A DNA stretch of 49,415 nt from an uncultured Lachnospiraceae bacterium. GTDB taxonomy: Bacteria; Bacillota; Clostridia; Lachnospirales; Lachnospiraceae. The notes beneath the pieces are model-generated. The model saw only the letters and a program-made list of their open reading frames with translations, was not told the origin of the DNA and did no database searches. Of the stretch, positions 32,327-45,939 are shown piece after piece; within the stretch, counting starts at the first letter, position 1, and each line of letters opens with the position of its first letter. The DNA lies in assembly GCA_949447165.1 (NCBI GenBank), contig CASTAV010000003.1, positions 1 through 49,415 of the forward strand, written 5' to 3'. Both the position numbers and the translations under genes were made by a program.

Positions 32327-32885
32327 TAATTTCTATCACAGTTTCCCCATGAAATTCTTCCGTATTTAGGATAACCTGATAACAGTCTTTGTCCGCATGG
32401 TAAACAAAATCATACGTTTTTTCACCATGATCCGTCTGAACCCTGACAACGAAAGCGCCAGCGGAAAATTCCTCTGCATCAAACTGAATCACAACTTGTG
32501 TTTGACTGCATTCTATGAAAGAATACTCGCCCTTTCTGCTGATAAATGTTTCTGTCTGCATTTTTTTGCCGCCGCTTCTGGATGCGGCAGGCATTGGCAG
32601 GCGGACAAATTCCCAGTTTGAATGAAACGTTTCCTTTTTTTGCTGTATCATTTCATAGATTCCCGCCGCTGCTTTTAGGGCAAAAACAACTCTCTTTTCT
32701 GATTCCGGCGGCAGTAAACCATGCGCAGATAATTGTTTTTGCAACACATACTGCGCGCAGAATATCTCATAACAGCGGTCACAATCCGCCATATGTTTTT
32801 TTAACTCTAACTGCCTGTCATTTAAACGTTCCTCTTTTACATAAGCTTCTGAAAGATTCCTAAGATCCTCCTCTGATATGTGCAT
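32304..32885 (-). CDS. zinc-finger (zf-HC2) anti-sigma factor
   Basis: 193 aa with the N-terminal zf-HC2 signature H-x3-C-x2-C (LELKKHMADCDRCYEIF). It sits immediately downstream of a sigma-70-like gene, with a 1-nt spacing. Confidence 0.6.
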   Translation of the reverse strand: MHISEEDLRNLSEAYVKEERLNDRQLELKKHMADCDRCYEIFCAQYVLQKQLSAHGLLPPESEKRVVFALKAAAGIYEMIQQKKETFHSNWEFVRLPMPAASRSGGKKMQTETFISRKGEYSFIECSQTQVVIQFDAEEFSAGAFVVRVQTDHGEKTYDFVYHADKDCYQVILNTEEFHGETVIEIIEDADGN

Positions 32886-33899
32886 TTAACCCTCCCGCCT
32901 GCAAAAGATATCCTCTGCTATGCCAATGCTTTTTTTACGGAATATATTATCCGCTAAAGCAAGTTTTTCTGTTTCATTTTTCAGGTTTTTTGCTATCCGA
33001 AGCGGCCAATTTTTCATTGCGTTTTTGGAAAATGTATCTGTGATGACAAGCTGTTTGACCGGACTGCCCTTATATTCTTTTTCCATATTTTCCTCATAAG
33101 CCCTTCCCCACCGGAATTGACTTTCGCTAAGCGGCTCTAAATGGTAAATTTCCAAAAACTCCCGGTTTAACAGTTCCGACGTCTGCCGATACATTGCGGA
33201 TATGGCAAAGTTCATCAGTATCACGCTGTTTCTAGTGATTTCTCCTTCAAGCCTGCCTGTTTTTTCATTGTAACGCGAAGCATCCCCATCTGTTTTCCTT
33301 GCGCCAATTACGTTTAATTTTTTCAACAGTTCTTTGTTGTCAGTTCGTTTTATTAGCTGTGGAACCAAAATAGCATAACAGTAGGTAAGCGTCTGATAAG
33401 GCGGGGCTTTCGTCTCTTTCAGCGCTTTTACATAAAACTCAAATATGCGGCGTATCACGGATAACCGTTCCTGTTCGATATAAGCGCTTTCCATCTGTTC
33501 CGATTCACCGCCTGTTTCGAATATACCGTTTTCCGGCTCTTTCGGTATAAATTCCTTTTTTGCAAAATGCCTCTTTCTGTAATTTTGGCAGCATATTTCC
33601 GCCAACCCGATCAAATACCCATAAAACCCTTCTGACGTCACTTTTTCAGGAAACCCGCGAAACGCCAGCTTCATCACTTCCATCCGGATTTCCTGCATCA
33701 CATCATCTAACGCTTCCGGCTGGCATATGCCATATGCGCGAAGCCTTTTTGCCGCCATTTCATAGGTATTGTCGCTTAAAATCTGAAGCGCTTTTTCCAA
33801 TGCGGATTTATCATTCCGCATTATCGGATCATATAAACGGCTTATGGCGCGCCCGGCATCCTCTCCTTCATAAAGCGCCTGATTATTTTCCTTTTCCAT
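32886..33899 (-). CDS. sigma-70 family (ECF-like region-2 N-terminus) sigma factor-like protein with extended C-terminal region
   Basis: 337 aa. A region-2-like segment ALDDVMQEIRMEVMKLAFRG...FYGYLIGLAEICCQNYRKR is present. It is paired with the downstream zf-HC2 anti-sigma factor. The length is atypical for an ECF sigma. Confidence 0.4.
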   Translation of the reverse strand: MEKENNQALYEGEDAGRAISRLYDPIMRNDKSALEKALQILSDNTYEMAAKRLRAYGICQPEALDDVMQEIRMEVMKLAFRGFPEKVTSEGFYGYLIGLAEICCQNYRKRHFAKKEFIPKEPENGIFETGGESEQMESAYIEQERLSVIRRIFEFYVKALKETKAPPYQTLTYCYAILVPQLIKRTDNKELLKKLNVIGARKTDGDASRYNEKTGRLEGEITRNSVILMNFAISAMYRQTSELLNREFLEIYHLEPLSESQFRWGRAYEENMEKEYKGSPVKQLVITDTFSKNAMKNWPLRIAKNLKNETEKLALADNIFRKKSIGIAEDIFCRREG

Positions 33900-33900
33900 A

Positions 33901-34494
33901 TTATTCTCCCGAAATTAATGCTGAAAACTCAATGATATGGTCTGCAAACCCAAATACGACCGCTTCTTTTGCCCTAAAAAAATGATCATATCCGGTTGCC
34001 AGTTCAATTTCTTCTTCTGTCCTTCCCGTATGTTTCGATAGAATTTGTATCAGCCGTCTCTTTGTCTCTAAAATCATTTCCGAAACTGAGCAAATCGTGG
34101 AACTGCTTCCTTGCACCGGATTCCCTAAAAGCGGTTCGTGCGCCATCAATTCACTGTTTGCAAGCATATAGCGGTTTCCTTTTGGGGCGGCGGCAAAAAT
34201 AACTGCGCCCATACTGTACGCTTTTCCCAGACAATACATTTTTAGCGGAGTCTGGCAAGTGGCAACTGCATCGTAAATGAGCAGTCCACTGTTTATTTCC
34301 CCTCCCCGCGTGTTTATCATAATCCGGATTGGAAGATATTTGTCTTCCACAGTTAAAACCATTAATTTTTTGATAAACTCCATTGCCGCCGCATCGTCAA
34401 TTTCCCCTTCTAAAAAAATAGTCCGCTCTCCAAACAAACAAGTTTCTAAAGGAACCAGCGAAATGCCGTTACTGCTTTTCTTCTGCATATCCAT
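33901..34494 (-). CDS. ClpP-family serine protease (catalytic triad intact)
   Basis: 197 aa. ERTIFLEGEIDDAAA, INTRGGEINSGLLIYDAV, GKAYSMGAVIFAAAPKGNRYMLANSELMAHEPL and a downstream YDHFF segment are present. These align with E. coli ClpP blocks including S97 (GQAASMG), H122 (MIHQP) and D171. Confidence 0.7.
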   Translation of the reverse strand: MDMQKKSSNGISLVPLETCLFGERTIFLEGEIDDAAAMEFIKKLMVLTVEDKYLPIRIMINTRGGEINSGLLIYDAVATCQTPLKMYCLGKAYSMGAVIFAAAPKGNRYMLANSELMAHEPLLGNPVQGSSSTICSVSEMILETKRRLIQILSKHTGRTEEEIELATGYDHFFRAKEAVVFGFADHIIEFSALISGE

Positions 34495-35785
34495 ATCTAT
34501 AACCCCCTGCTTTTATATATTGGTTTATTTGCTTTTGCATTTTTGATTCCTGATCCATCTGTAAAAGTTTTTGATACTCTCTGTCCTTTAATGTTTCATA
34601 GCGCTGTGTCACAATCGGCTTTTGCCCGCGCCGAAAAATATACTCCTGCCCGATTGGCATGGAAAGCACGTCTTCTAGCGGCTGGTTTAACCGCTGGCTG
34701 ATGGATTTTGCCGTTTGTATGTCAACTCCGCCCATATAAATATAAGTGTCGGAATTGTTGATGATAGTCTTTGCATCTTTTTCCCCATATATGGAATCCA
34801 ACTGGCTTTCGCTTTGGAGAAGCAAGGTGACGGAGATCCCTTTTTCCCTGAATATTGAAATGTATTCAGCAAAATTCGCGATTTTTGATCCACAGGCAAA
34901 ATCGTCGCACAGCACATGCACTGGGCGGTTTAACTGGCCAGATTCATTTTTTTCTCCGATTTCAAATAATTCTTTAAACATCTGGCTGTAAAAAATATTT
35001 ACAAAACTGTTTAGCGATGGGTTCACCGGAGAAGTTGTGACAAATAAAAGGGTTTTTTCATCGGATATTTTTTTAAAATCCACCTTTTCCGCTTTTTGCA
35101 TCATTCCACAGAGTTGTGGGGTAAAAATCGTGTTTAAAGCTACGGAAAGCGTAGAATAAATACAACTGGAAGTGCGGACAGGCATCTGATGGAAAGAATC
35201 CCAACAGCAAATAGCAAAACAATGCGGATCAGCCTGCCGGATCACCTCAAAATCTTCATCAAGTGAAGTTTCTATCAGATCACTGCCTTTTATAATGCGT
35301 AAATCTTTAAACAGGGATATTACATCTGCCATAGTTCCGTGTTCTTTTGTCATCAGCACATGGGCGATCAGCGCTGACAACAGGCTTATGCTCGCATGAT
35401 CCCAATATGGGTCTGAACTTGAATTTTTTTTCCTGCTGTCTGCCATAACGATTGCTTCCGCAAGATAAGTAACGTCTGTCCAGCTCTTAAGATATTGAAG
35501 CGGATCATAGGAAATTTCCGATTTTTCTGGAGAAACAAAGTTCAGATCTAGGACTTTATAGCCCCTTGTCTGAAAAAGTTTTATGTATTTTGCAATCAGC
35601 CTGCGTTTGGACAAAGTCATAATCAGACTGGAATGATAAGTATGCAGCAGCCTTGGCTCTGAAATAGACATCGTCTTTCCTGAGCCACTGCTTCCACAAA
35701 CAAGGACATTGTTATTAATCTTCGTTTCCCTGCAGTCTGCGCTAAATACTGCATTTTTCCCTAAAACAACAGTATCTTTTCTCAT
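34469..35785 (-). CDS. soluble TraG/TraD/VirD4-family (type IV coupling protein-like) P-loop ATPase
   Basis: The start is the MRKDTVVLGKN methionine (ATG 35783-35785), with a GGGAGG RBS 7 nt upstream. It overlaps the upstream gene's stop as ATGA. Walker A VLVCGSSGSGKTMS is present. The C-terminal T4CP block VLCDDFACGSKIANFAEYISIFREKGISVTLLLQSESQLDSIYGEKDAKTIINNSDTYIYMGGVDIQTAKSIS matches the TraG-D_C pattern (LDEF..lgkip.....RsrGi...lilQs.sQL...YG......i..n.......G..d..Ta). There is no N-terminal TM segment. Confidence 0.55.
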   Translation of the reverse strand: MRKDTVVLGKNAVFSADCRETKINNNVLVCGSSGSGKTMSISEPRLLHTYHSSLIMTLSKRRLIAKYIKLFQTRGYKVLDLNFVSPEKSEISYDPLQYLKSWTDVTYLAEAIVMADSRKKNSSSDPYWDHASISLLSALIAHVLMTKEHGTMADVISLFKDLRIIKGSDLIETSLDEDFEVIRQADPHCFAICCWDSFHQMPVRTSSCIYSTLSVALNTIFTPQLCGMMQKAEKVDFKKISDEKTLLFVTTSPVNPSLNSFVNIFYSQMFKELFEIGEKNESGQLNRPVHVLCDDFACGSKIANFAEYISIFREKGISVTLLLQSESQLDSIYGEKDAKTIINNSDTYIYMGGVDIQTAKSISQRLNQPLEDVLSMPIGQEYIFRRGQKPIVTQRYETLKDREYQKLLQMDQESKMQKQINQYIKAGGYRYGYAEEKQ

Positions 35786-36297
35786 AACGGCGCCTCCCAG
35801 AACGGATTTAAACGAATTTGGCTCAGTTTTAGACTGGTTTTTGATCCGACCGCTCCTTGTTTTAGAATGTTCTGTACACATTCTGCATAATTCATGGTAA
35901 TATTTGTTGCAAAACGGAACACAGACTGCAAATTTTCTATAAAACCATTTACGCTTTCCCTTCCTTTCGGCTGGTACAGCATCATCTGGTATTCTGCCAC
36001 CAAATCATTCTCGTTTGTCATATAAATGCGCATGTACAGCCATTCATTCTGCAAATCGTTTATCAATTTATAAATTTCCCTATGACGGTTCTCTGGAATC
36101 CCTTCTGCAAGACATGTGACAATCCGGATAATTTTACTTTTCTCACTTACGGATACATTCATCTTTAGGGAATGGCAGGGGTTGCCATAAGATAAACTAT
36201 ATTTGATAAATCCTTCTTTGTCGCGCTCCTCTGTGTTCGATACTTTCCCAAATTGGTTTAATACTTGTTTTACAATTTCCTGATAAGCGGCTGCCAT
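35782..36297 (-). CDS. first gene of the operon; possible YbjN-family (T3SS-chaperone-like fold) protein
   Basis: 171-aa acidic protein with an AGGAGG RBS 7 nt upstream. The family assignment is weak, from the pattern only. Confidence 0.3.
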   Translation of the reverse strand: MAAAYQEIVKQVLNQFGKVSNTEERDKEGFIKYSLSYGNPCHSLKMNVSVSEKSKIIRIVTCLAEGIPENRHREIYKLINDLQNEWLYMRIYMTNENDLVAEYQMMLYQPKGRESVNGFIENLQSVFRFATNITMNYAECVQNILKQGAVGSKTSLKLSQIRLNPFWEAPL

Positions 36298-36378
36298 AAG
36301 CTTTCCTCCTTTTTACATTCTCATAGACTATATGGCGGCTTACCAAACATTTACTCAAATTTTATTAAATTTTCCCTT

Positions 36379-36522
36379 CCGTCTTTTTGCTTTTCTTTCG
36401 CTGTCTTTTTTATTTTTCTTTCTCTATCTTTTTTGTTTTTCTTTCGCTGTCCTTTTGCTTTTCTTTCGCTGTCTTTTTACTTTTCTTTCGCTGTCTTTTT
36501 ACTCTTTTCGCTTTTTATGACT
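36379..36522. repeat. six imperfect tandem copies of a ~22-bp unit (gtctttttgcttttctttcgct) in the intergenic region upstream of the vault-like operon
   Basis: Direct reading: gtctttttgcttttctttcgct / gtcttttttatttttctttctcta / tcttttttgtttttctttcgct / gtccttttgcttttctttcgct / gtctttttacttttctttcgct / gtctttttactcttttcgct. Confidence 0.7.
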
Positions 36523-36540
36523 TATTTTTATGCGATTCCA

Positions 36541-37401
36541 TTAAAATTTCTTTTTTATTGTTTTCTTTTTATATCCCGATTTTTTAATCTGCGCTTTGAC
36601 CGTAATGCCTTTTAGCTTCTTTCTAAACTTAATTTTTGCATTTCCTTTTTTGTCTGCTTTTACAGTTTTAGAAGATTTCCCAAGGAACGATTTCTTTGCC
36701 CTGACTTTAACTCTTGCGTTTGGAACTGTTGTTATTTTTAACGTTTTTCCCTTTTTTGAAATTTTTGCCATTACCACCTGCACTTGATAGGTCGCTTTTA
36801 GTTTCCCAATTACAGCTTTAATTGTCACAGAGCCTTCCTTTAATCCTTTTATCTGCCCGGAAGGGGATACGGACGCCACTTTAGGGTTAGAACTGCTGTA
36901 AATTGGCTTTAAGCTTGTAATTTTTCCAAGGGAACCCATAACGGAAGCTTTCTGCGTCAAGGTATGCCCGGCTACCAGCGTTTTTTTCTTTTTTGAAAAT
37001 GTAATTGATTTTGGCTGGTTGGATACAACGGTCACTTTATAAGAAGCGGATAATTTTCCAGTTTTTGCAGTAATTACCGCCACTCCCGGCGCAATTCCTA
37101 ACACTGCGCCCGATGCGGATACAGACGCTGCTTTGGGATTGGAACTGCTGTATGACGGTTTTATATCATTGCGTACCCCCGCATCGTCTTTGACTACCGC
37201 TTTTTGCGTCATAGATTCCCCTGCCATAATTGTAACGCTTGATTTTAAAAATGAAATCTCTTTTGGCTTATGTGACACTGCGATATTAACTGTAGCTCGC
37301 CTGCCGCTTGTCGTCTTCGCAATAATGGTAACACTTCCCACTCCTTTTGCCGTTACCTCCCCAATGCTGTTCACCTCCGCAATGCCAGTATTGGAACTTT
37401 C
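36541..37401 (-). pseudogene. in-frame continuation of the LRR protein past the TAG: two to three Big_2 domains + Lys-rich C-terminal tail (no start codon of its own; the ORF track begins at a GTG)
   Basis: It is in the same frame as the upstream ORF. Reading through the stop gives ...ANTTDAVI*ESSNTGIAEVNSIGEVTAKGVGSVTIIAKTTSGRRATVNIAV, which completes a Big_2 domain. Further Big_2 units follow (SSSNPKAASVSASGAVLGIAPGVAVITAK; SSSNPKVASVSPSGQIKGLKEGSVTIKAV), then a KKGKTLKI...KKKTIKKKF tail. Confidence 0.5.
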
Positions 37402-38733
37402 CTATATAACTGCGTCGGTTGTATTCGCCGGCGTAATGGCATAAGTCAGCAGCCGCGTATCATCTACATTCATATAAATCGTTCCCGCAGAAAATTTAAT
37501 GCTGGAACTTGGAACTGCTTTTAATAAAACAATGGGATTCCCTTTCGCTGACGCATATTTTTCGGCTTCTGATCCGGCATAACATTTTATCGTCACTTCA
37601 TTACTGCATATTTGATAATAATGATCCTGCATATTTATTACGCTGTTCGGAATCAAAATGCTGCTTAGGGCATTGCAACTATTGAACGCCGCATATTCAA
37701 TTTGTGTAACCGTATTTGGAACTGCAACGCTTATAAGAGAACTGCATCCAGAAAAAGCGGTTCTTCCAATCTTTAACAAACGATTTGATAAACCTATCTG
37801 CTTTAAAGACGTACATCCTGCAAATGAAGACTCTTCCAAATACCTTACGCTTGATGGAAGTGTAACTTTTACCAAACTAGAACAGCCGCTAAATGCTTCC
37901 GTGCCAATTGAAATTCCGGTATTGCCATTTGCAATCGAAACATTTTTTAATGAAGAACACTGCTCAAATGCGTTATAACCAATATTGGCATTTGCCCCAA
38001 TGGAAACCGTCGTTAGATTCTTATTACCTGCAAAAGCATATCCGGATATAGACGTATGAACAGATGCACTTACTAAATTTTGACAATTATTAAAAGCACT
38101 TCTGTCCATTTCAACAGATGCCGCAACATTGACGCTTGTTAATCCTGTATTTTCAAAGCTACCTATGCCTAAATATGTAAGCGTTGACGGAAAAACACAG
38201 CCGTTTAACTTTACACAATTTTGAAAAGCATAATATCCTATTGACGTAAGCGCAGTTCCAAGAGAAACGCTTCGCAAATTTCCACAATTAGAAAAAGCGT
38301 ACCTACTTATAGACACTACATTTTTCATTCCATAAATAGCTGTCAGATTTCCGCAGCTCTGAAAACTACCGTAACCGATACTTGTAACCGTATCCGGTAT
38401 ATTAACAGATATCACCCAATCATTATATTCAAAAGCCCAATTACCAATCGCCGTTACTTTTTTTCCGGCTATCATGCTTGGAATCACTACATTTTCTTCT
38501 ACTCCTGTATATTTTGTTATAACAATATTGGAATAATCTCCTTCTTTATATTGCCAAAAACCAAATACGCCGTTTCCTTTCGCCATTTCCACAGTTTCTT
38601 CCCTGACAGTCTCCTCTGCATTCACCATCTCTGTCCCAGAAAAAAACATAAGAACCGCAAGCAACGCAACAAATAATATCCTTTTTTTCATAATCACTTT
38701 CCCCTTTCTACCGATAACCCATTTCTTCCTCAT
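37402..38733 (-). CDS. BspA-type leucine-rich-repeat (LRR_5) cell-surface protein, N-terminal part (ends at an in-frame TAG)
   Basis: The signal peptide KKRILFVALLAVLMFFSGTEMVNA is followed by many ~22-aa repeats of the type I(P/G)..VTSIG..AF..C..L. The ORF stops with TAG at 37402-37404 in the middle of a Big_2 domain. Confidence 0.7.
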   Translation of the reverse strand: MRKKWVIGRKGKVIMKKRILFVALLAVLMFFSGTEMVNAEETVREETVEMAKGNGVFGFWQYKEGDYSNIVITKYTGVEENVVIPSMIAGKKVTAIGNWAFEYNDWVISVNIPDTVTSIGYGSFQSCGNLTAIYGMKNVVSISRYAFSNCGNLRSVSLGTALTSIGYYAFQNCVKLNGCVFPSTLTYLGIGSFENTGLTSVNVAASVEMDRSAFNNCQNLVSASVHTSISGYAFAGNKNLTTVSIGANANIGYNAFEQCSSLKNVSIANGNTGISIGTEAFSGCSSLVKVTLPSSVRYLEESSFAGCTSLKQIGLSNRLLKIGRTAFSGCSSLISVAVPNTVTQIEYAAFNSCNALSSILIPNSVINMQDHYYQICSNEVTIKCYAGSEAEKYASAKGNPIVLLKAVPSSSIKFSAGTIYMNVDDTRLLTYAITPANTTDAVI

Positions 38734-39754
38734 AATCGAGAATCAGATACAAATTCTGCTTCTCATATTCATTTAACAAGCTGTCTTTAAAATCTTCCGG
38801 CTTAATAGAACCATGATACCAATCTTTTTCATCAAAATAATTTTGCAGCGCTTCATCATCAAACAACCGCCCATACCTCGCATAGACTTCATTCCTAGCC
38901 AAACGAAGCTCCTCTTTTCCTAACCCCTCTATATCCGATCTGTCCAGATACCGTGCGCCACTGTCCGGAATTATATAATCTTTCTCTTTTTCCTGCCGTT
39001 TTGTTTCTTTCGTCACTTTCACAGGCTGGCTTCCTTCCACTGTCGTATCCCATTCACAGATATATCCGCCCCTGCTTACTGTTTCATCATCATTCCCAAG
39101 GTCGTCCCACTGCCCTTCATCAATCCGATAACCATACCCGCTCCTTTCTCCATTACAGATTGCCCCGTAGCACTGTCCATAACTTCCATCAGGCTCCCCT
39201 TCTCCCCAATTCGTATAAGAAACAGGCTCTCCCGTCACCCATGTTTCCCATGGCTCCCGAATGCCTATCCAAAGATCACAGTCAAATCCCACATATTGAT
39301 TGATATATCCATAGACTGCTTTCTGTTCTTTTTTGGAGGCAATGGTAAGCAAATGCCCTCCTCTTTCTTCACATTTTTCTTTCGCCTCCTCCCATGTAAT
39401 GCCGCCAGCCTGTTCAAAATAATAATAGCTGTGCCCCTTATATTCGAAACAATCCGTAGGTATATGGAGGCTTTCCGTTTCATTCTGTTTGTTTTCCTGT
39501 TTAGTTTCCCACTCATCTTCCTTTTGGCTCTGCTGTTCTGCCTCCGATTGCTGTTTTGCTTCTTCCATGCGCTTCTGCTCTGCTTTTTGCTCTTTTGATT
39601 CCGCTAATGCAGTTTCCACTTTCGGTTTCAATTTTTTTATCCCATAGCGGACCCCCGCCGCAATCACTGCCGCCGCCACTGCGGCAAATACCGCCATCGC
39701 AAGCAGCATTTTTTTCATATCCTGTTTTCTGTAATTTGATAACTTCAACCTCAT
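38708..39754 (-). CDS. type-II membrane protein with C-type lectin-like domain and C-terminal YARHG domain
   Basis: N-terminus MRLKLSNYRKQDMKKMLL followed by a TM helix and a Q/E-rich coiled-coil. The CTLD is C..KGHSYYYF......W..A...C...GGHL..I.S..E...V.......WIGI......W.W..GEP..YTNW..GEP....C.......W.D..C....YICEW. A YARHG-like segment is present (NEVYARYGRLFDDEALQNYFDEKDWY). Confidence 0.7.
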   Translation of the reverse strand: MRLKLSNYRKQDMKKMLLAMAVFAAVAAAVIAAGVRYGIKKLKPKVETALAESKEQKAEQKRMEEAKQQSEAEQQSQKEDEWETKQENKQNETESLHIPTDCFEYKGHSYYYFEQAGGITWEEAKEKCEERGGHLLTIASKKEQKAVYGYINQYVGFDCDLWIGIREPWETWVTGEPVSYTNWGEGEPDGSYGQCYGAICNGERSGYGYRIDEGQWDDLGNDDETVSRGGYICEWDTTVEGSQPVKVTKETKRQEKEKDYIIPDSGARYLDRSDIEGLGKEELRLARNEVYARYGRLFDDEALQNYFDEKDWYHGSIKPEDFKDSLLNEYEKQNLYLILDYEEEMGYR

Positions 39755-39784
39755 TCTCCTTACTTTATTCCAAGCGCCAGCCGC

Positions 39785-40429
39785 TTAAAGAGCGAATATA
39801 AAAAGCATTAGAACTGCTGTATTCAATATAATACCCACAAGCGCCAAAGCCCCTCCCTGCTCCTTTCTGGCTCTCACGCCCAGAATCAATCCAAGAACAG
39901 CCATCCATAAAACTCCCCGAAAAGACAACACGCCTAAAACTACCGCCGCCACTGCTTTTCCATTTACTCTATTCTCCTCTGCTTCTCTTTCCTGCCCAAA
40001 GCCCTGAACATTCTCCTCTGCACTCTCTAAATCAGAAGATGCCGTTTCCGCAGTTTTCGCCTGTAACGCTTCCCCATTTCTGTTTAACCCACAAATATCC
40101 AAATAAACCTTACACCGGACGTCATCCTGATCCGCTCCGGCTTTCCAATACATTTTTGCCAGCCCAAAATTTTGCGCGCAGCAAATACCCGTCATATAGC
40201 ACCAGCCAAGGAAACGGTTGGTTTTATAATCATTCTGTTCGTTCTCGCATACTTCCCGGAAATATACTGATAAACGCGCTTCTATCAAATCTTTATCCGT
40301 ATCCTCTGCCGCATATTTGGCAAGCGTCATAAAGGCATTTCCATCTCCTTTAACGGCAGCTTTGCACAGCCAGTCCAAACAATCTTCTTTATCGCCTTTC
40401 TGCATACAAATCAGGCCAAAAAAATACAT
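39785..40429 (-). CDS. Sel1-like repeat protein, C-terminal part with TM segments (frameshifted continuation of 40411-41184)
   Basis: Sel1-like units (WLCKAAVKGDGNAFMTLAKYAA; AKMYWKAGADQDD) followed by two hydrophobic helices. The ORF start lies inside a T7 tract. Confidence 0.5.
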   Translation of the reverse strand: MYFFGLICMQKGDKEDCLDWLCKAAVKGDGNAFMTLAKYAAEDTDKDLIEARLSVYFREVCENEQNDYKTNRFLGWCYMTGICCAQNFGLAKMYWKAGADQDDVRCKVYLDICGLNRNGEALQAKTAETASSDLESAEENVQGFGQEREAEENRVNGKAVAAVVLGVLSFRGVLWMAVLGLILGVRARKEQGGALALVGIILNTAVLMLFIFAL

Positions 40430-41184
40430 GGATTCTGAATAGCCGCATTCTGCAGGAAACCGGAGATATTCTTCCGCTTTTTTAAGTCCTTTGGAACTTC
40501 TTCCCCTTTTATATACATCTCGCCCAATTCCTGCGAACTTAAAGCATCCCCTTCCTTTACTCCCAGTAATAAAAGCTTTATTTTTTTATCCGTATCCGTC
40601 AGTTGAAATGCTTCTTCCCAATAATGCCGCGCCGCTTCATTTGACTTTTTCTCCTCTTTTTCTAAAAAACGCAAAAACGCTTCCTGAATCTTAGGATTCT
40701 CAATATGTTTTCCATAATCGCTCTTTGTCTGGCTATAATTCTTCACTTTAACAGGAATATCTCCATGAAGCGCGCTTTGTATCTGCGCAAACATTTCATT
40801 AACTGCGCCCGTATTAAAAATATAATTAGCGTCTGTGCCCAGATCTGTAAACGAATCTACACTGATGCAATCCTCATACTTCTCAAATTGCGCTTCATGG
40901 AAGGCGCCCGCTTTATAATAGATACCATCAAAGCCAAATACCATTCCTTCTTTGCCGTTACTTGAAGATACAATAATAAAAATATCTTCTTTTTTTAGAG
41001 ATGGATATTTATATTTTACATTTCCGATTTTATACAACGCGCCCTCTATAACTTTCACAGGAACTTCTTCCCCAAAACTCCACTTATAAACCTCCCCGTA
41101 GTTGTCCCTGAGTATTTTTTCGCAGTAGTTAAGAATTATCCTACAGATTTTCTCCATTTCCTGTCTGGAATAAATGAGATTCAT
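40411..41184 (-). CDS. Sel1-like repeat protein, N-terminal part (reading frame breaks at a T7 homopolymer)
   Basis: 257 aa. The C-terminal region begins Sel1-like repeats (LGEMYIKGEEVPKDLKK). The ORF ends ...CIFLA* within tgtatttttttggcc. A +1 T would fuse it in frame to the downstream ORF as ...PCIFFGLICMQKGDKED. Confidence 0.5.
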   Translation of the reverse strand: MNLIYSRQEMEKICRIILNYCEKILRDNYGEVYKWSFGEEVPVKVIEGALYKIGNVKYKYPSLKKEDIFIIVSSSNGKEGMVFGFDGIYYKAGAFHEAQFEKYEDCISVDSFTDLGTDANYIFNTGAVNEMFAQIQSALHGDIPVKVKNYSQTKSDYGKHIENPKIQEAFLRFLEKEEKKSNEAARHYWEEAFQLTDTDKKIKLLLLGVKEGDALSSQELGEMYIKGEEVPKDLKKRKNISGFLQNAAIQNPCIFLA

Positions 41185-41201
41185 GTGTTTCTCCCCCTAT
41201 T

Positions 41202-42317
41202 TTATGAAATGCTTTCCCCCTGAATACAAGACTGTATCGCCAGAAGCGTCCCATAATCATGTTGGTCTAATCTCTCTGCCCCCTTTGTCTCAAGCCTTCG
41301 TAATTGAATCACCGCCGACGCTTGTACACATAATTTGAAAAATTCACACAGCCACTTGCTTCTGTTCGAAACAGAGCCTGTATAAATATAATTCACCCCG
41401 TAACAAGTCGGGCAGACAAAATGATACTTACATTCCACGCAGCGTTTTTCTTCGTGAATATCCGCTGCAGGCAATTTATAATCCACAAATTTCCCCGCTT
41501 CCTCTCCCAGCCCGACCGGGCTAAAGGAATGGCAGGGATATAACTTTCCTTCCGTGTCATACGCTTTCATCAACTCTCCAGCCCCACATCGCTTAAACCC
41601 GGCGTCTGGTTTTTTCAGGATTCCAGTCAAATCAATATTTAATATCTGGCATAAAGGAAGGTTTGGATTTTCAGTATAATACGCCACTAATTTATCAAGC
41701 TGTCCTTTTAGCCCGTGTATTAAATCATCGCTCCATTCCAGACCATATGCAAACGTACACCCACATGGAAACCCTTTTTCATGGATAAAGATAACGCCTT
41801 CTGCCAGACTGGGAAGCGTCTCTTTTGACACAGTCATCTTCACATTCTGTCCTGGCCAGCATTCCCTAAAAAAATCCAAATCAATGCGGTCAAAAGAATC
41901 CGAACGGTTCTGATTGTGCATTTCTCTTGTCCCATCTAGGCTGATTCCACAGTAGATGTGTTCCTTCCGCTCTCTAAGCCACTGCTTCATTTCCGCGTCA
42001 AGCAATGTTCCATTTGTATTCACAAAAATAACTGCCTTTTTTCGCCACTTTGGCATATTCGACTCAATATAGCCATAAATCTCTTTAATTATCTGCTTTT
42101 CTAAAAATGGCTCGCCGCCAAACAATGTAAACCTGCATTCGTCCGCGCCGTCTTCCATTGACATTTCCGCATCGATAATCTTTTTTGCCGTCTCAAATTT
42201 CATTCTCTTATCCGATTTATAATGTTCAAAACAATAAGAACATGACAGATTGCAGCCTTCTGTCAAGATCAGCATGACTTCTTTTAACATACCTCTATCG
42301 CCCCCGTTTCTTTGCAA
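41202..42317 (-). CDS. radical SAM / SPASM-domain peptide-modifying enzyme
   Basis: CxxxCxxC cluster (CNLSCSYC) near the N-terminus and a C-terminal SPASM-type Cys cluster (CVECKYHFVCPTCYG). Confidence 0.8.
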   Translation of the reverse strand: MQRNGGDRGMLKEVMLILTEGCNLSCSYCFEHYKSDKRMKFETAKKIIDAEMSMEDGADECRFTLFGGEPFLEKQIIKEIYGYIESNMPKWRKKAVIFVNTNGTLLDAEMKQWLRERKEHIYCGISLDGTREMHNQNRSDSFDRIDLDFFRECWPGQNVKMTVSKETLPSLAEGVIFIHEKGFPCGCTFAYGLEWSDDLIHGLKGQLDKLVAYYTENPNLPLCQILNIDLTGILKKPDAGFKRCGAGELMKAYDTEGKLYPCHSFSPVGLGEEAGKFVDYKLPAADIHEEKRCVECKYHFVCPTCYGVNYIYTGSVSNRSKWLCEFFKLCVQASAVIQLRRLETKGAERLDQHDYGTLLAIQSCIQGESIS

Positions 42318-42371
42318 ATATGCAGGAAAAGACTTCTCTTTTCCTGCATTTTTCTGTAATGCCGTTTCCTC

Positions 42372-42545
42372 TTACCTCACATCACAGGCTGTCCACACAG
42401 AAATCCCATGTCCTTTGCAGCTTCCGGAACAGGAATCGCAAGCGCTGGAAATTACGATGTTTTCGATTGAAAGTTCACCGAATTTCTTTTCACAGACGTC
42501 AAGCATACTCTGTAAAGCAAATTTTTCTTCTTTTGTCATTGCCAT
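42372..42545 (-). CDS. candidate Cys-rich RiPP precursor peptide (ranthipeptide/sactipeptide-like) for the adjacent rSAM-SPASM enzyme
   Basis: 57 aa, MAMTKEEKFALQSMLDVCEKKFGELSIENIVISSACDSCSGSCKGHGISVWTACDVR. An AAAGGGGG SD lies 8 nt upstream of the ATG at 42543-42545. The peptide has five Cys, four of them clustered in the C-terminal 20 aa, and it sits 55 nt upstream of the rSAM gene. Confidence 0.45.
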   Translation of the reverse strand: MAMTKEEKFALQSMLDVCEKKFGELSIENIVISSACDSCSGSCKGHGISVWTACDVR

Positions 42546-43392
42546 AACATTCACCCCCTTTCCAAATGTTTCTCTTTTTATAATCCAGAGCCATTCCTCT
42601 CTCCAGTAATTCCATCAAGCCGCTTTTTTCCTCCAATTCTGTACGCAGGCGGCAGGAAAACACGTCACAATCCAACCGCTCCTCCGCCCCCGGAGGCGCA
42701 GCGTTTGCCAGACAAAAATACCATGTCGCATAAAAGGCATAGATATCCGTCCATACGCCATACATGCCTCCCTTTTCATATTGTTCCGGCGGGCTAAAGC
42801 CGGTTCGGTAAGTTGGTTCTTCAAGCTGCTGTTTTCGGCTGTTTAAATCCAATGCAGATCCAAAATCAATCAGTCCCACTTCTTTTGCTTCTGTAACAAT
42901 AATATTGTCAGGACAAATGTCCCTATGGATAATTCCATGTCTATGTATCTGCTCCAAACTTTTTTGAAGGGATTCCATCAGTACATAAGATTCTTTCGCT
43001 TCCATTCTTCCATTTTTCTGAACCATCTCGCGTAACGTCATGCCCTTACAGCGCCCCATAACGATATAAGCCGTATTATTTTCCAAAAAAAAGTCCTGGA
43101 TTTTAACAATCCCCTCAATATTTTTTAATTTTTCCAGAATAGATGCTTCATGGATAAACATGTCATATTTGCCGCTGTTATTTTTGAAAAAAACCTGAGA
43201 CGTTTCACCGCGGTATGCTTTTCCATATGGAAAATACTCCTTAATCACGACATCCTTATCCTGCGCAAAATCTACCGAAAGATAAGAAATCCCAAAACCG
43301 CCCTGCCCAATCATTTTTTTTATACAATATCTATTCTGAAGGATCTTGCCACTGTTTAAAAGTTTCCTCCCCCTATATAACCGATCTCCCAT
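42499..43392 (-). CDS. Hanks-type Ser/Thr protein kinase domain protein (atypical catalytic loop HRDICPDN)
   Basis: Glycine loop IGQGGFG, beta-3 Lys VVIKEY, HRD catalytic loop, DFG (IDFGSA) and an APE-like TGFSPPE. Confidence 0.75.
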   Translation of the reverse strand: MGDRLYRGRKLLNSGKILQNRYCIKKMIGQGGFGISYLSVDFAQDKDVVIKEYFPYGKAYRGETSQVFFKNNSGKYDMFIHEASILEKLKNIEGIVKIQDFFLENNTAYIVMGRCKGMTLREMVQKNGRMEAKESYVLMESLQKSLEQIHRHGIIHRDICPDNIIVTEAKEVGLIDFGSALDLNSRKQQLEEPTYRTGFSPPEQYEKGGMYGVWTDIYAFYATWYFCLANAAPPGAEERLDCDVFSCRLRTELEEKSGLMELLERGMALDYKKRNIWKGGECYGNDKRRKICFTEYA

Positions 43393-43454
43393 GCCAGTTT
43401 CGCCTTTTCAAAATTCTTTTATTCACCAATGACAGAAAACAACGCCGCTTTTCC

Positions 43455-43865
43455 TTACGCGCAAGCCTCTTGGCGTTCGCGCATCAAATCTTTTATCCCA
43501 TAGACAACTCCCGGAACCCAAACCACTCCAACCGCAAAACTAAATACAAACATTGCGATAAAAAGCCCTTTCCCAATTCCCTTTCCCGTTATCAAATGCA
43601 CGATAAGATAGAAAAAGCTAATATCCGCGCTGACTTTTGCAGCGCCGGCTAAAAATCCTTTGCATCTTTTCCAGCCAAATGCGTAACCAAACGCATATAA
43701 CATACAACATGGAACCATCAAAAAGCTCTGTACTGTAAGCCCGGTTTGTGATTCTCCGATCATCTCCCCATATTGCCTTACATAAGTCATCATATAAATT
43801 CCAATAACTGCTCCAATAACTGCCCCAACTATAATTGCAATAATTGCTTTTTTCTTTGCGCTCAT
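43455..43865 (-). CDS. small integral membrane protein (hypothetical)
   Basis: 136 aa with about four hydrophobic helices. No recognisable family. Confidence 0.4.
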   Translation of the reverse strand: MSAKKKAIIAIIVGAVIGAVIGIYMMTYVRQYGEMIGESQTGLTVQSFLMVPCCMLYAFGYAFGWKRCKGFLAGAAKVSADISFFYLIVHLITGKGIGKGLFIAMFVFSFAVGVVWVPGVVYGIKDLMRERQEACA

Positions 43866-43933
43866 ACTTTCACCTCATCTATTTTCTGTCATTCCTATCA
43901 TTTCTGTCATTGGCAAATAAAAAATTTTCTCTT

Positions 43934-44566
43934 TTATTCCATAGAAAAATCCTCTTTTGGATCTTCCGTCACCTCTTTATAATAAGAAGACAAATATTCA
44001 AACCTGTTTACAACCGATTGTGGACAGTAGCGGATAATATACGCCAAATCCCGTTCCATAAACGCTTTCCGGATTTTTGTCGAAGACAGGCCTTCAAAAA
44101 TACAGTTTCGTTCGAAATTCCGGTATCTAATAAAGGAATAGACCTCCGTATCCAAAAACCAACTGTCTAATATCTGCGGATTATCTGAATAGTACAGCGA
44201 AAATCTTTTCTGCCCGATTCTGGACACGACATTATAATAAAAATATCGTCCCCAGATTTTTGCGCCTTCTAAATCGGATTCCATAGACCAATCCGGCAAT
44301 GTATCTACCTTTATTCTTCTATTCTGTTTTTCATCAAAACACTCTCGCAGCATCCTTTCCCGCAATGAGATGTCAAACGGATTTCTAAGCATGTCCAGTT
44401 TGTTCTCACTGCCAAGCATAATAAATACTTTGTCATTTTCCTCTAACGCTTTCTCCACTAAGAACAGATGCGCATTATGGACAGGCTGCATTCTTGCCAA
44501 AAACACGCCATATGTATCTGACATTTGATCTCTCCCCTTTCTTTCAAGCCTGCTTATTTTTCCCAC
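43934..44566 (-). CDS. cytidylyl/adenylyltransferase-family nucleotidyltransferase (NMN adenylyltransferase NadM-like)
   Basis: GVFLARMQPVHNAHL fits the (H/T)xGH nucleotidyltransferase motif (G.f.GRFQP.H.GHL), followed by IMLGSENK. Confidence 0.55.
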   Translation of the reverse strand: MGKISRLERKGRDQMSDTYGVFLARMQPVHNAHLFLVEKALEENDKVFIMLGSENKLDMLRNPFDISLRERMLRECFDEKQNRRIKVDTLPDWSMESDLEGAKIWGRYFYYNVVSRIGQKRFSLYYSDNPQILDSWFLDTEVYSFIRYRNFERNCIFEGLSSTKIRKAFMERDLAYIIRYCPQSVVNRFEYLSSYYKEVTEDPKEDFSME

Positions 44567-45606
44567 TCACAAAAATAAACGCCGCTCCATATGCTGTCAT
44601 TCCACTTATATTTTGCATCTGCATAAAAGGCTGCATAATCTTCATCTCCCTGAAAATTATCCGGCTGATTCTTTCCCCAATTTGTATAATCAGATTCATA
44701 GCCTTCTGCCCAAACCCATTTTCCTTCTTCTTTTTGGTCCGTATATCCAAAATTCACACTCTCGTAGCCTCGTTCTATCATATATTTATATAGAGCTTTA
44801 TTTTCTTTTTTGTTATTTATCACAGCAAGATGCCCACCCAGACTTTCGCATCTTTCATTTGCTTCTTCCCATGTTGCTTCACCTTCTAAAATCATATAAC
44901 GACGCGATTTATATGTAAGAACCGGATCAATCGGATTTAAATAGCCTGTTTCTTCATTATCTGCTTCAATTCTTTCTCTGTTTTTCCTGCCCTGCTCTTT
45001 TGAATCCCATTCACATACATAAGATGAAGTGTCATTAGTAGAAATGGCCCTCCATTTCGACTGATCATAACGGTAATATGACCCATACATACAATCTTTG
45101 TCACTTCCAAGATCCGGCTCCCCTTCTGTCCAGTTCGCATACTCCGTCCCTTCTGTGATAATCCAATTCCAACTAATTTGCTCCATATCCATATACAATC
45201 CGAAAAAAACATATTCATACTCTTTAGAAGACACATACTTATAAACCGCTTTATCTTCAGAAGACGTCGTCATCGTTGCCAGATGCCCTCCAAGCTGCTC
45301 ACATTTCCATTCTGCATCTTCCCACGACTCGGCATCGTCATATACATAGTAATAGTGTCCATTATATTCTAATGCGGAATACGGTATATCCATTTCCTTT
45401 TCCCATGCTTCCTTTTCTATCCGTTCCAATCTCTCTTTTTCCCTTGTTTCTTTAAACTCCGAAAACACTTCTTCCACTTTCGGCCTAAAAAACCGGACTG
45501 CCTGACTAATTGCAATTATCGCCACAATGGCAACTGCAAAAGAAATTGCCGCCATTACAAGAAATATTTTCTTTGCATCTTTTCCTCTAAAATTTGAAAA
45601 CTTCAT
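44554..45606 (-). CDS. type-II membrane protein with two tandem C-type lectin-like domains
   Basis: The likely start is MKFSNFRGKDAKK (ATG 45604-45606) followed by a TM helix. The two CTLDs are ...GHYYYVYDDAESWEDAEWKCEQLGGHLATM...YANWTEGEPD...YVCEWD and ...RRYMILEGEATWEEANERCESLGGHLAVI...YTNWGKNQPDN...YFCEWEK. Confidence 0.7.
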   Translation of the reverse strand: MKFSNFRGKDAKKIFLVMAAISFAVAIVAIIAISQAVRFFRPKVEEVFSEFKETREKERLERIEKEAWEKEMDIPYSALEYNGHYYYVYDDAESWEDAEWKCEQLGGHLATMTTSSEDKAVYKYVSSKEYEYVFFGLYMDMEQISWNWIITEGTEYANWTEGEPDLGSDKDCMYGSYYRYDQSKWRAISTNDTSSYVCEWDSKEQGRKNRERIEADNEETGYLNPIDPVLTYKSRRYMILEGEATWEEANERCESLGGHLAVINNKKENKALYKYMIERGYESVNFGYTDQKEEGKWVWAEGYESDYTNWGKNQPDNFQGDEDYAAFYADAKYKWNDSIWSGVYFCEWEK

Positions 45607-45655
45607 TTTTCTTTTCCACCATTTTTTCCAAACAATATACAACGTTCCATATTTT

Positions 45656-45925
45656 TTACTTTTGTTTTTTCCTTTCTTTTTCACGTTTTCTTTTCCGAAA
45701 CATTATAATTATAAAGCAAGGGATACCAACGAAAACCAATAGGCAGCCCTTCACTTCATTTTCATTCTGAACAATCCAGTCCACTGTATCCAACACAACC
45801 GGCCCCAAAAACCGTACTCCTGCGATGATTGCCGCCAATGCCAGAATCAATCCAATTCCCGCTAAACTCCCGGCAATCAGCAGCATCCTTTTTTTATCTT
45901 TTCCCCTAAAATTTGAAATCGTCAT
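45656..45925 (-). CDS. small two-TM protein sharing the lectin-family N-terminal motif (possible truncated paralog)
   Basis: MTISNFRGKDKKRMLLIAGSLAGIGLILALAAIIAGVRF... then a second TM and a KR-rich tail. No lectin domain. Confidence 0.35.
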   Translation of the reverse strand: MTISNFRGKDKKRMLLIAGSLAGIGLILALAAIIAGVRFLGPVVLDTVDWIVQNENEVKGCLLVFVGIPCFIIIMFRKRKREKERKKQK

Positions 45926-45939
45926 TTTTTCTCCACCGT

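What the first reader, a model, noticed from the sequence alone, without database searches (positions are those of the whole stretch)
40405..40435. Sel1-repeat membrane protein disrupted at a T7 homopolymer: candidate slipped-strand phase switch
The ORFs 40411-41184 and 39785-40429 overlap by 19 nt in different frames exactly at tgtaTTTTTTTggcc (A7 on the top strand, 40418-40424). Adding one T fuses them into one ~465-aa protein (...NPCIFFGLICMQKGDKED...) with continuous Sel1-like repeats and C-terminal TM helices. This is either a homopolymer sequencing error or an ON/OFF phase-variable locus, currently OFF.
Basis: seen in the sequence. Interest (0 to 1): 0.5.

Follow-up and report, generated by a model that had tools for sequence, protein, structure and literature searches.

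The report
Inherited frameshift in Sel1-repeat membrane gene

Summary
The ORF geometry is as described: 40411-41184(-) and 39785-40429(-) overlap by 19 nt at a coding-strand T7 (40418-40424). The T7 is not the lesion. Intact 466-aa homologues, including one with the same amino-acid haplotype as the window (P0007), have the same T7 but carry A7 where the window has A6 (coding strand; + strand T6, 40478-40483). Restoring that base gives P0007 exactly.

The exact 257-aa truncated product occurs on 112 contigs from several independent mouse-gut projects, so a sequencing error is excluded. Only 1 of 89 homopolymers of 6 nt or more differs between the window and a 99.9%-identical intact strain.

A6 is completely linked to two derived flanking SNPs (41625 T, 45576 G) in all three A6 haplotypes, and these SNPs are absent from all four A7 lineages. 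No A5 or A8 allele, T6 or T8 allele, or ±1 variant at two other A7 tracts of the gene exists in about 15 billion proteins. This points to one old deletion inherited by a widespread lineage, not fast phase variation.

The deletion incidentally creates an in-frame A_AAA_AAG slippery heptamer, but nothing supports programmed frameshifting. This is an ordinary finding of low interest.

The parts
39785..41184 (-). Whole disrupted gene. With one base restored it encodes a 466-aa protein: N-terminal domain of unknown function, Sel1-like repeat solenoid and a C-terminal two-helix membrane anchor.
   Evidence: Inserting one base at 40478-40483 gives a protein 100% identical to P0007. Homologues P0001, P0002 and P0005 are single ORFs.
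40478..40483 (-). The real lesion: coding-strand A6 (+ strand T6). All intact alleles have A7 here (codons TTA AAA AAA GCG = L-K-K-A, residues 234-237).
   Evidence: It is the only indel inside the gene in alignments with L001, L006, L009 and L073-75. The tract is shown side by side.
40477..40483 (-). A_AAA_AAG heptamer in the 0 frame, an automatic by-product of deleting one A from TTA AAA AAA G. A -1 slip here would restore the native ...DLKKAEEYL... reading.
   Evidence: Read directly from the sequence. No stimulatory structure was found (z = -0.27).
40414..40476 (-). Out-of-frame tail of the truncated product. The 19 residues after LKK are non-native (RKNISGFLQNAAIQNPCIFLA); the native sequence is AEEYLRFPAECGYSESMYFFG...
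   Evidence: Comparison of P0004 with P0007 and P0001.
40411..40413 (-). Premature TGA stop of the 257-aa product.
40418..40424 (-). It encodes the conserved Tyr-Phe-Phe of the SLR motif, does not vary, and is not the lesion.
   Evidence: Identical in all A6 and A7 loci. T6 and T8 variants are absent from the protein collection.
40427..40429 (-). Internal ATG (Met253, invariant in the family) that makes the downstream 214-aa ORF appear. No Shine-Dalgarno sequence lies upstream of it.
   Evidence: Alignment A1 shows M253 invariant.
40403..40405 (-). Second internal ATG, 5 nt after the premature stop. Gene callers start the 206-aa downstream ORF here, so it is the only plausible site for termination-reinitiation. 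It also lacks a Shine-Dalgarno sequence.
   Evidence: Gene calls in L005, L065 and L066. Sequence.
41191..41197 (-). Strong ribosome-binding site GGGGGAG, 6 nt upstream of the true start codon at 41182-41184.
40765..41184 (-). N-terminal domain (residues 1-140, mixed alpha/beta, no Pfam match). It also occurs fused to other C-termini in homologues P0064, P0095 and P0160.
40094..40716 (-). Sel1-like repeat solenoid (residues ~157-364, pLDDT mostly >90). The frameshift at residue 237/238 falls inside helix 234-246, in the middle of the solenoid.
   Evidence: AlphaFold model. Foldseek top hits are all SLR proteins such as 6ok3, 4bwr, 8sxq, 5b26 and 5jkp. The Pfam Sel1 score of 27.9 bits is below the 30.7 cut-off.
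39791..39961 (-). C-terminal two-helix membrane hairpin (residues 409-465, DUF4190-like).
   Evidence: Pfam DUF4190 E = 9e-5, below cut-off. Model helices 409-443 and 446-465.

Best explanation
The window carries a heritable loss-of-function (at best hypomorphic) allele of a 466-aa Sel1-like-repeat membrane protein.

Shown:
- One A was deleted from a coding A7 run (TTA AAA AAA GCG -> TTA AAA AAG CG; window 40478-40483).
- Translation from the strong RBS and ATG at 41184 therefore leaves the native frame after Lys236, reads 19-21 foreign residues and stops at TGA 40411-40413.
- The product has 257 aa and lacks most of the solenoid and the membrane anchor.

Inferred:
- The deletion happened once, in the ancestor of one strain lineage of an uncultured mouse-gut Lachnospiraceae species. 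It has since been inherited stably while that lineage diversified and spread through mouse colonies.
- The downstream 206/214-aa ORF is a remnant without its own RBS. At most it is made in traces, either by reinitiation at the ATG 5 nt after the stop or by rare spontaneous -1 slippage on the A_AAA_AAG that the deletion created.
- The T7 tract plays no role.
For: (a) Site of the lesion. Alignments with intact loci show a single indel in the gene, A7 versus A6 at 40478-40483. Restoring it gives P0007 exactly. The native reading DLKKAEEYL...SMYFFGL is conserved down to homologues of 33-48% identity.

(b) The allele is real. The exact 257-aa product is on 112 contigs (201 index blocks) and the 206-aa remnant is in 178 blocks. 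Contigs from ERR982839, GCA_949441635.1, GCA_948888185.1, SAMEA3134362 and ERR675633 all carry A6, and L005 and L067 are 100% identical to the window. Only 1 of 89 homopolymers of 6 nt or more differs between the window and the intact strain L006 over 19.6 kb.

(c) Single origin and stable inheritance. With L001 as outgroup, the derived alleles 41625 T and 45576 G are present wherever covered in A6 haplotypes (window/L005/L067-69, L070; L008 covers only 41625). They are absent from all A7 lineages (L001, L006, L009, L073-75). The A6 clade has since accumulated further SNPs (45143, 43468 and 41853 in the window sub-lineage; 43480 and 41876 in L070). All 23 longest contigs carrying the window-type neighbouring YARHG protein were collapsed by the tool as sharing mostly the same neighbouring proteins as the one place shown, whose arrangement is 257+206 aa.

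(d) No sign of hypermutability. The 48%-identical homologue has TTG AAA AAG at this site, so the tract is not conserved.

(e) The break falls inside a helix in the middle of a confidently modelled solenoid, not at the natural module boundary near residue 140-165 where shorter natural homologues begin.

(f) Other lineages of the same species carry different widespread inactivating lesions in the same gene cluster: the kinase cut to 258 aa on 361 contigs and the radical-SAM enzyme cut to 298 aa on 358 contigs. The window also has a TGG->TAG nonsense mutation in the neighbouring LRR/Big_2 gene. This is the pattern expected for a dispensable cluster.
Against: - Only a handful of haplotypes could be examined at the DNA level (3 with A6, 4 with A7), because the contig tool collapses similar places. 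Rare revertants cannot be excluded.
- One 1.2-kb JGI contig (L008) combines A6 with the V45I substitution otherwise seen on an A7 background. A 114-nt start-region deletion also occurs on both A6 (L070) and A7 (L073-75) backgrounds. So either recombination or recurrent mutation operates in this 1-2 kb, and a second independent A7->A6 event is possible.
- No read-level data were available, so within-sample heterogeneity is untested.
- The downstream ORF shows no further decay, although the clade is too young (about 0.1% divergence) for that to be informative.
Confidence: 0.8

Rival explanations
1. Slow contingency switch: the A7/A6 tract is a low-rate reversible ON/OFF switch, and A6 is simply the OFF phase that dominates in some mouse colonies.
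For: A ±1 change in a coding homopolymer toggles the frame. ON and OFF alleles are both common on the same amino-acid haplotype (P0007 on 147 contigs, P0004 on 112 contigs). A6 also occurs once with V45I (P0014/L008). The gene lies among surface and membrane protein genes.
Against: - A 7-nt poly-A tract is below the 10-nt poly-A/T cut-off used for phase-variable tracts (PMC6321876).
- A6 is perfectly linked to flanking derived SNPs.
- No A8 or A5 allele was found anywhere.
- The tract is not conserved in the next homologue.
- Three other 7-nt A or T tracts in the same gene never vary.
- The single discordant contig is 1.2 kb from a metagenome and could be chimeric.
Confidence: 0.1
2. Homopolymer sequencing or assembly error in this assembly; the organism actually has A7.
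For: The lesion is a 1-nt change in a homopolymer, the classic error type.
Against: - The same allele occurs in 112 contigs (201 index blocks) from independent Illumina-based projects, some 100% identical to the window.
- It is linked to SNPs.
- 88 of 89 other homopolymers of 6 nt or more are identical between the window and L006.
Confidence: 0.02
3. Recoding: the A6 allele is expressed as full-length protein by programmed -1 ribosomal frameshifting (dnaX-like) or by transcriptional slippage at A_AAA_AAG, producing both a short and a long product by design.
For: The heptamer A_AAA_AAG is in the correct 0 frame, and a -1 slip gives exactly the native sequence DLKKAEEYL. This heptamer is the known slippery site of dnaX (PMC5389563; PMC9307594).
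Against: - The heptamer is an automatic consequence of deleting one A from TTA AAA AAA G.
- The ancestral and outgroup state is the in-frame A7.
- The local fold is no better than shuffled sequence (z = -0.27).
- The only SD-like AAGGA lies about 3 nt upstream rather than 10-14 nt. That spacing requirement is from my own knowledge of dnaX.
- A_AAA_AAG occurs in 68 E. coli genes, and spontaneous frameshifting in vivo is about 1e-4 to 1e-5 (PMC9307594).
Confidence: 0.03
4. Functional split gene: the two ORFs are both translated and work as a two-subunit version of the protein.
For: The N-terminal domain and the Sel1+TM module occur as separate proteins in other organisms (P0020, P0022, P0028 and P0003 lack the N-domain; P0064, P0095 and P0160 have other C-termini). 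An ATG lies 5 nt after the premature stop, which would allow reinitiation.
Against: - The break is at residue 237/238, inside a repeat helix, and not at the natural module boundary near residue 140-165.
- There is no Shine-Dalgarno sequence before either internal ATG.
- About 20 foreign residues are appended to the first product.
- The split form is confined to one recent lineage.
Confidence: 0.05

Closest known systems
Strain-specific frameshift pseudogenes caused by single-base indels in short coding homopolymers
   Same: A 1-nt deletion in a 7-nt run, a premature stop, inheritance by descent in one lineage, the intact allele in sister lineages, and other loss-of-function lesions nearby.
   Different: Nothing essential. 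It is notable only for how widespread the allele is in public mouse-gut data (112 contigs).
Simple-sequence-repeat (homopolymer) translational phase variation, e.g. the contingency loci of Campylobacter, Neisseria and Haemophilus
   Same: A coding homopolymer whose ±1 change switches the frame of a membrane or surface-associated protein.
   Different: The tract is only 7 nt of A/T (usual cut-off 10 or more; PMC6321876). Only two lengths exist. The state is linked to flanking SNPs. The tract is not conserved. No reversibility has been shown.
E. coli dnaX programmed -1 frameshift at A_AAA_AAG
   Same: An identical heptamer in the correct frame; a -1 slip would restore the native protein.
   Different: No upstream SD at the right spacing and no downstream hairpin. 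The two-frame arrangement is derived and lineage-specific, not conserved.
Sel1-like repeat (SLR) proteins (HcpC 1ouv, LpnE 6deh, LceB 8sxq, Oxalobacter SLR proteins 6ok3, Pseudomonas immunity protein PA5087 5jkp)
   Same: The alpha/alpha solenoid fold and the SLR sequence motif (G..V.KD...A..Y...AA..G...A...LG).
   Different: There is no signal peptide. Instead the protein has a novel N-terminal domain and a C-terminal two-helix anchor, so the solenoid is probably cytoplasmic. The gene sits directly after a radical-SAM/SPASM maturase.

Membership tests
SSR-mediated translational phase variation | A repeat tract inside the ORF whose ±1 change toggles the reading frame | tested here: met
A7 gives 466 aa and A6 gives 257 aa.
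SSR-mediated translational phase variation | Tract long enough to be hypermutable (poly-A/T of 10 or more in PhasomeIt cut-offs) | tested here: not met
   The tract is 7 nt (6 in the window). Cut-offs are from PMC6321876.
SSR-mediated translational phase variation | Tract length varies independently of strain background, with several lengths among close relatives | tested here: not met
   A6 is fully linked to derived SNPs 41625 T and 45576 G. A5, A8, T6 and T8 variants are absent from about 15 billion proteins. One discordant 1.2-kb contig (L008) leaves a small doubt.
SSR-mediated translational phase variation | High-frequency reversible switching within a clonal population | not testable with these tools
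   This needs raw reads or amplicon sequencing of cultures; no read-level data were available.
   T7 is identical in the window and all eight related loci listed (five with A7, three with A6); the more distant homologue L004 has no T7. T6 and T8 products are absent.
Programmed -1 ribosomal frameshift (dnaX type) | X_XXY_YYZ slippery heptamer in the 0 frame | tested here: met
   tt A_AAA_AAG cgg in the upstream ORF frame.
Programmed -1 ribosomal frameshift (dnaX type) | Stimulatory elements (upstream SD-like sequence at about 10-14 nt, downstream stable hairpin or pseudoknot) | tested here: not met
   The fold of 40380-40520(-) has z = -0.27 against shuffles. AAGGA lies only about 3 nt upstream.
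Programmed -1 ribosomal frameshift (dnaX type) | The two-frame gene organisation is conserved among relatives | tested here: not met
   The outgroup and all other lineages encode a single in-frame ORF.
Sequencing/assembly homopolymer artefact | Allele not reproducible in independent assemblies; general homopolymer noise in the assembly | tested here: not met
   The allele is on 112 contigs (201 index blocks) from several projects. Only 1 of 89 homopolymers differs from L006.
Sel1-like repeat (SLR) protein family | Pfam Sel1 (PF08238) match above the gathering score | tested here: inconclusive
   27.9 bits against a cut-off of 30.7, with one stretch at residues 325-355. The precomputed Pfam annotation of P0001 lists PF08238.
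Sel1-like repeat (SLR) protein family | SLR alpha/alpha solenoid fold | tested here: met
   The model has pLDDT >90 over most of residues ~160-365. The top 23 Foldseek PDB hits are all Sel1/SLR proteins, 15 of them at E <= 1e-3.

The most novel reading that the evidence does not exclude
The A6 allele may be a tuned hypomorph rather than a dead gene. Occasional -1 ribosomal slippage on the newly created A_AAA_AAG, or rare A6->A7 reversion, would supply low levels of the full-length Sel1-repeat membrane protein. The A-tract would then act as a slow dose or contingency control for a protein tied to the adjacent kinase / Cys-rich peptide / radical-SAM (RiPP-like) cluster in a gut commensal Firmicute, a group in which SSR-type switching is hardly documented.
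Probability: 0.08. Interest if true: 0.35.

Novelty: already known. Interest (0 to 1): 0.12.

Why it matters
This result mainly serves as a correction and a caution.

An ORF overlap at a homopolymer does not identify the site of a frameshift. Here the true lesion lies about 55 nt upstream and was visible only by comparison with intact alleles.

Annotators of this mouse-gut Lachnospiraceae species (GTDB representative MAG MGBC163558) should treat 39785-41184 as one frameshifted gene.

Biologically, different common lineages of the species have each inactivated a different gene of the same kinase / peptide / radical-SAM / Sel1 cluster. This suggests the cluster is dispensable or counter-selected in laboratory mice. 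That is a modest lead for anyone studying that putative RiPP system.

Tried and rejected
- T7 as the switch: rejected. The tract is invariant and the T8 repair gives non-native residues.
- Sequencing error: rejected.
- Frameshift-stimulating RNA structure: none found.
- tRNA-Lys repertoire: there are no tRNA genes in the window, so it could not be assessed.
- DNA pattern scan of JGI metagenome contigs for the tract with variable length: 0 hits. A protein-based scan of the same collection found only two distant relatives. No extra population sample came from there.
- L068 and L069 seemed to show further breaks in the gene. These are N-filled scaffold gaps, not mutations.
- I first read the 114-nt start-region deletion in L070 as decay after inactivation. 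I rejected this because the same deletion occurs in A7 (intact, 424-aa) contigs L073-75.
- First AlphaFold run with 5 sequences: too poor to use (pLDDT 50). The second run with 23 sequences was usable.
- Literature search for homopolymer phase variation in Lachnospiraceae: nothing relevant.
- Literature search for the conflict-system vocabulary: no hits.
- Exact look-up of the 429-aa nonsense-truncated LRR product failed, although gene calls list it. Its frequency is therefore unknown.
Full report
OBSERVATION. On the minus strand, ORF 40411-41184 (257 aa) and ORF 39785-40429 (214 aa) overlap by 19 nt in different frames. The overlap contains a coding-strand T7 (+ strand A7, 40418-40424). Adding one T yields a 466-aa ORF. 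All long ORFs in the window lie on the minus strand. Runs of this length are common in the window: 12 A7 and 37 T7 on the + strand, at 43% G+C.

WHERE THE GENE IS ACTUALLY BROKEN. The fused protein and P0001 agree everywhere except between ...DLKK and YFFGL.... The window-derived fusion reads RKNISGFLQNAAIQNPCIF, whereas the homologues read AEEYLRFPAECGYSESMYF. That is the signature of a frameshift further upstream.
- DNA alignment with the syntenic contig L001 shows one indel inside the gene. L001 has CTTAAAAAAAGCGG (A7) and the window has CTTAAAAAAGCGG (A6), at window 40478-40483.
- The same holds for L006, L007/L009 and L073-75, while the T7 is identical in every locus.
- Restoring one base at 40478-40483 gives a protein 100% identical to P0007.
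- The native reading (KDLKKAEEYL ... AMxxxG) is a conserved Sel1 motif down to 33% identity, and Met253, the 'start' of the downstream ORF, is invariant in the family.
- The overlap at the T7 is therefore incidental. The shifted frame stays open for 19 codons and ends at a TGA created by reading GGC CTG ATT out of frame.

NOT A SEQUENCING ERROR.
- The exact 257-aa truncated product (P0004) is on 112 contigs (201 index blocks) from NCBI, ENA and Logan. The 206-aa downstream remnant is in 178 blocks.
- A6 contigs come from several independent projects: ERR982839/PRJEB10308, ERR675633/PRJEB7759, SAMEA3134362, and MAGs GCA_949441635.1 and GCA_948888185.1. L005 and L067 are 100% identical to the window over 6.8 and 3.8 kb.
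- Over 19.6 kb shared with the intact strain L006 (99.89% identity), only 1 of 89 homopolymers of 6 nt or more differs, namely this one.

THE ORGANISM AND THE ALLELES. The GTDB species representative is an uncultured mouse-gut Lachnospiraceae MAG (MGBC163558, L009). It carries the intact gene. NCBI names the product 'hypothetical protein [Eubacterium sp.]' / 'TPR repeat protein'.
- Intact alleles: P0005 (V45I) on 256 contigs (483 blocks); P0007 (the window's own amino-acid haplotype) on 147 contigs (178 blocks); P0009 (N-terminally shortened) on 3 contigs.
- Broken alleles: P0004 on 112 contigs; P0014 (V45I) on 1 contig; plus edge or gap-truncated versions.

PHASE VARIATION OR INHERITED MUTATION? 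I polarised SNPs with L001 (95% identity) as outgroup.
- The derived alleles 41625 T and 45576 G are present in every A6 haplotype that covers those sites (window/L005/L067-69, L070; L008 covers only 41625). They are absent from every A7 lineage (L001, L006, L009, L073-75).
- Inside the A6 clade further substitutions have accumulated: 45143, 43468 and 41853 in the window sub-lineage, and 43480 and 41876 in L070. The deletion therefore predates much of the diversity at this locus and has not reverted in the sampled descendants.
- All 23 longest contigs carrying the window-type neighbouring YARHG protein were collapsed by the tool onto one place, whose arrangement is 257+206 aa.
None exists among about 15 billion proteins.
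- The tract is 7 nt. A published cut-off for poly-A/T phase-variable tracts is 10 or more, and the authors note that mutability below about 1e-5 is inefficient for reversible switching (PMC6321876).
- The 48%-identical homologue has TTG AAA AAG GCA at this site, so the run is not conserved.

Two observations point the other way. One 1.2-kb JGI contig (L008) combines A6 with V45I. A 114-nt deletion of the start region occurs on both A6 (L070) and A7 (L073-75) backgrounds. Short-patch recombination, recurrent mutation or metagenome chimerism can each explain these. Neither breaks the link between A6 and 41625 T. I conclude that a single, old, inherited deletion is the best explanation (about 0.8) and that a slow contingency switch remains possible (about 0.1).

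RECODING? Deleting one A from TTA AAA AAA G automatically leaves tt A_AAA_AAG in the 0 frame. This is the dnaX slippery heptamer, and a -1 slip would give exactly ...DLKKAEEYL.... Several points argue against programmed frameshifting.
- The arrangement is derived, not conserved.
- The region folds no better than shuffled sequence (z = -0.27).
- The only SD-like element sits about 3 nt upstream.
- The bare heptamer occurs in 68 E. coli genes, and spontaneous frameshifting in vivo is about 1e-4 to 1e-5 (PMC9307594).
Trace read-through is plausible but is only an inference.

Neither internal ATG (40427-40429 or 40403-40405) has a Shine-Dalgarno sequence, in contrast to GGGGGAG before the true start. 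The second ATG lies 5 nt after the premature stop, so weak reinitiation cannot be excluded.

WHAT THE PROTEIN IS. Three parts can be distinguished.
- Residues 1-140 form a mixed alpha/beta domain with no Pfam match. In other organisms it is fused to different C-termini (P0064, P0095, P0160).
- Residues ~157-364 form a Sel1-like-repeat solenoid. pLDDT is mostly >90, all top Foldseek PDB hits are SLR proteins, and the Pfam Sel1 score is just below the cut-off.
- Residues 409-465 form a two-helix DUF4190-like membrane hairpin.
There is no signal peptide. Natural 'short' relatives begin at about residue 140-165. The window's break at residue 237/238 lies inside helix 234-246. This argues against a functional two-subunit version.

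CONTEXT. The gene starts 17 nt after a PapB-like radical-SAM/SPASM maturase. That maturase is preceded by a 57-aa Cys-rich peptide ORF and a Ser/Thr kinase, which together look like a RiPP-like cluster. Downstream lie a C-type-lectin/YARHG membrane protein and an LRR_5/Big_2 surface protein.
- The commonest lineage of the species (V45I, the species representative) has 1-nt deletions that cut the kinase to 258 aa (361 contigs) and the radical-SAM enzyme to 298 aa (358 contigs), while keeping the Sel1 gene intact.
- The window's lineage keeps those two genes intact but has the Sel1 frameshift and a TGG->TAG nonsense mutation at 37402-37404 in the LRR/Big_2 gene.
Independent, widespread loss-of-function lesions in different genes of one cluster fit dispensability better than programmed switching.

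VERDICT. The feature is real, but it was mislocated and misinterpreted. It is an ordinary lineage-specific frameshift allele at an A7->A6 tract (40478-40483). It is neither a T7 phase switch nor a sequencing error. Interest is low.

Noticed in passing
window 41202-43392 (-): kinase 42499-43392, small ORF 42372-42545, radical-SAM enzyme 41202-42317: Candidate RiPP cluster. A Ser/Thr kinase is followed by a 57-aa peptide with a Cys-rich C-terminus (...SSACDSCSGSCKGHGISVWTACDVR) and a PapB-like radical-SAM/SPASM maturase (NF047865, E = 9e-44, below cut-off). The Sel1-TM gene follows 17 nt later. The 57-aa peptide is on 285 contigs.
   Followed up: partly
window 42691, 42526 and 41514, compared with L007/L009: The commonest lineage (the GTDB species representative MGBC163558) has three 1-nt deletions. 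They truncate the kinase to 258 aa (361 contigs) and the radical-SAM enzyme to 298 aa (358 contigs). Different lineages therefore break different genes of the same cluster.
   Followed up: partly
window 37402-37404 (-): A derived TGG->TAG nonsense mutation splits the LRR_5/Big_2 surface protein into 429/443-aa and 266/277-aa ORFs (37402-38733 and 36541-37374). The protein is 716 aa in L006 and L075 and 712 aa in L001. The split gene arrangement (429 + 266 aa) is shown for contig L065, which carries the window-type neighbouring protein; the 22 other contigs read were collapsed by the tool as having mostly the same neighbours.
   Followed up: partly
window 41074-41187 (-), compared with L070 and L073-L075: A 114-nt deletion between imperfect repeats (GGGGGAGAA / GGGGAAGAA) removes the start codon and 38 codons and places the RBS in front of a GTG. 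It gives an N-terminally shortened protein (424 aa when A7, 215 aa when A6). It occurs on both A6 and A7 backgrounds, which implies recombination or recurrence.
   Followed up: partly
window 44554-45684 (-), compared with L001: The C-type-lectin protein has two lectin domains here (376/350 aa). The 95%-identical relative L001 lacks about 560 nt and has only a 109-aa lectin ORF plus an 89-aa ORF. This is a domain-level indel between sister lineages.
   Followed up: no
window 27249-36297 and 47233-49415 (-); L006 1-3151: The neighbourhood looks like a conflict or defence-type island. It contains a CHAT protease-domain protein (890 aa), a protein with major-vault-protein shoulder and repeat domains (797 aa), ClpP, a VirD4/TraG-like coupling ATPase, a TY-Chap1 chaperone, a transglutaminase-core protein, further C-type-lectin proteins and, just beyond the window in L006, a GAP1-N2/GAP1-M protein.
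   Followed up: no
L006 versus window, 21 SNPs over 29785-49415: In roughly half of the substitutions separating L006 from the window, L006 carries G where the window carries A, T or C, often next to other Gs. Six differences are shared with L009 and so are real. The rest could include two-colour-chemistry G miscalls in the Logan contig.
   Followed up: no
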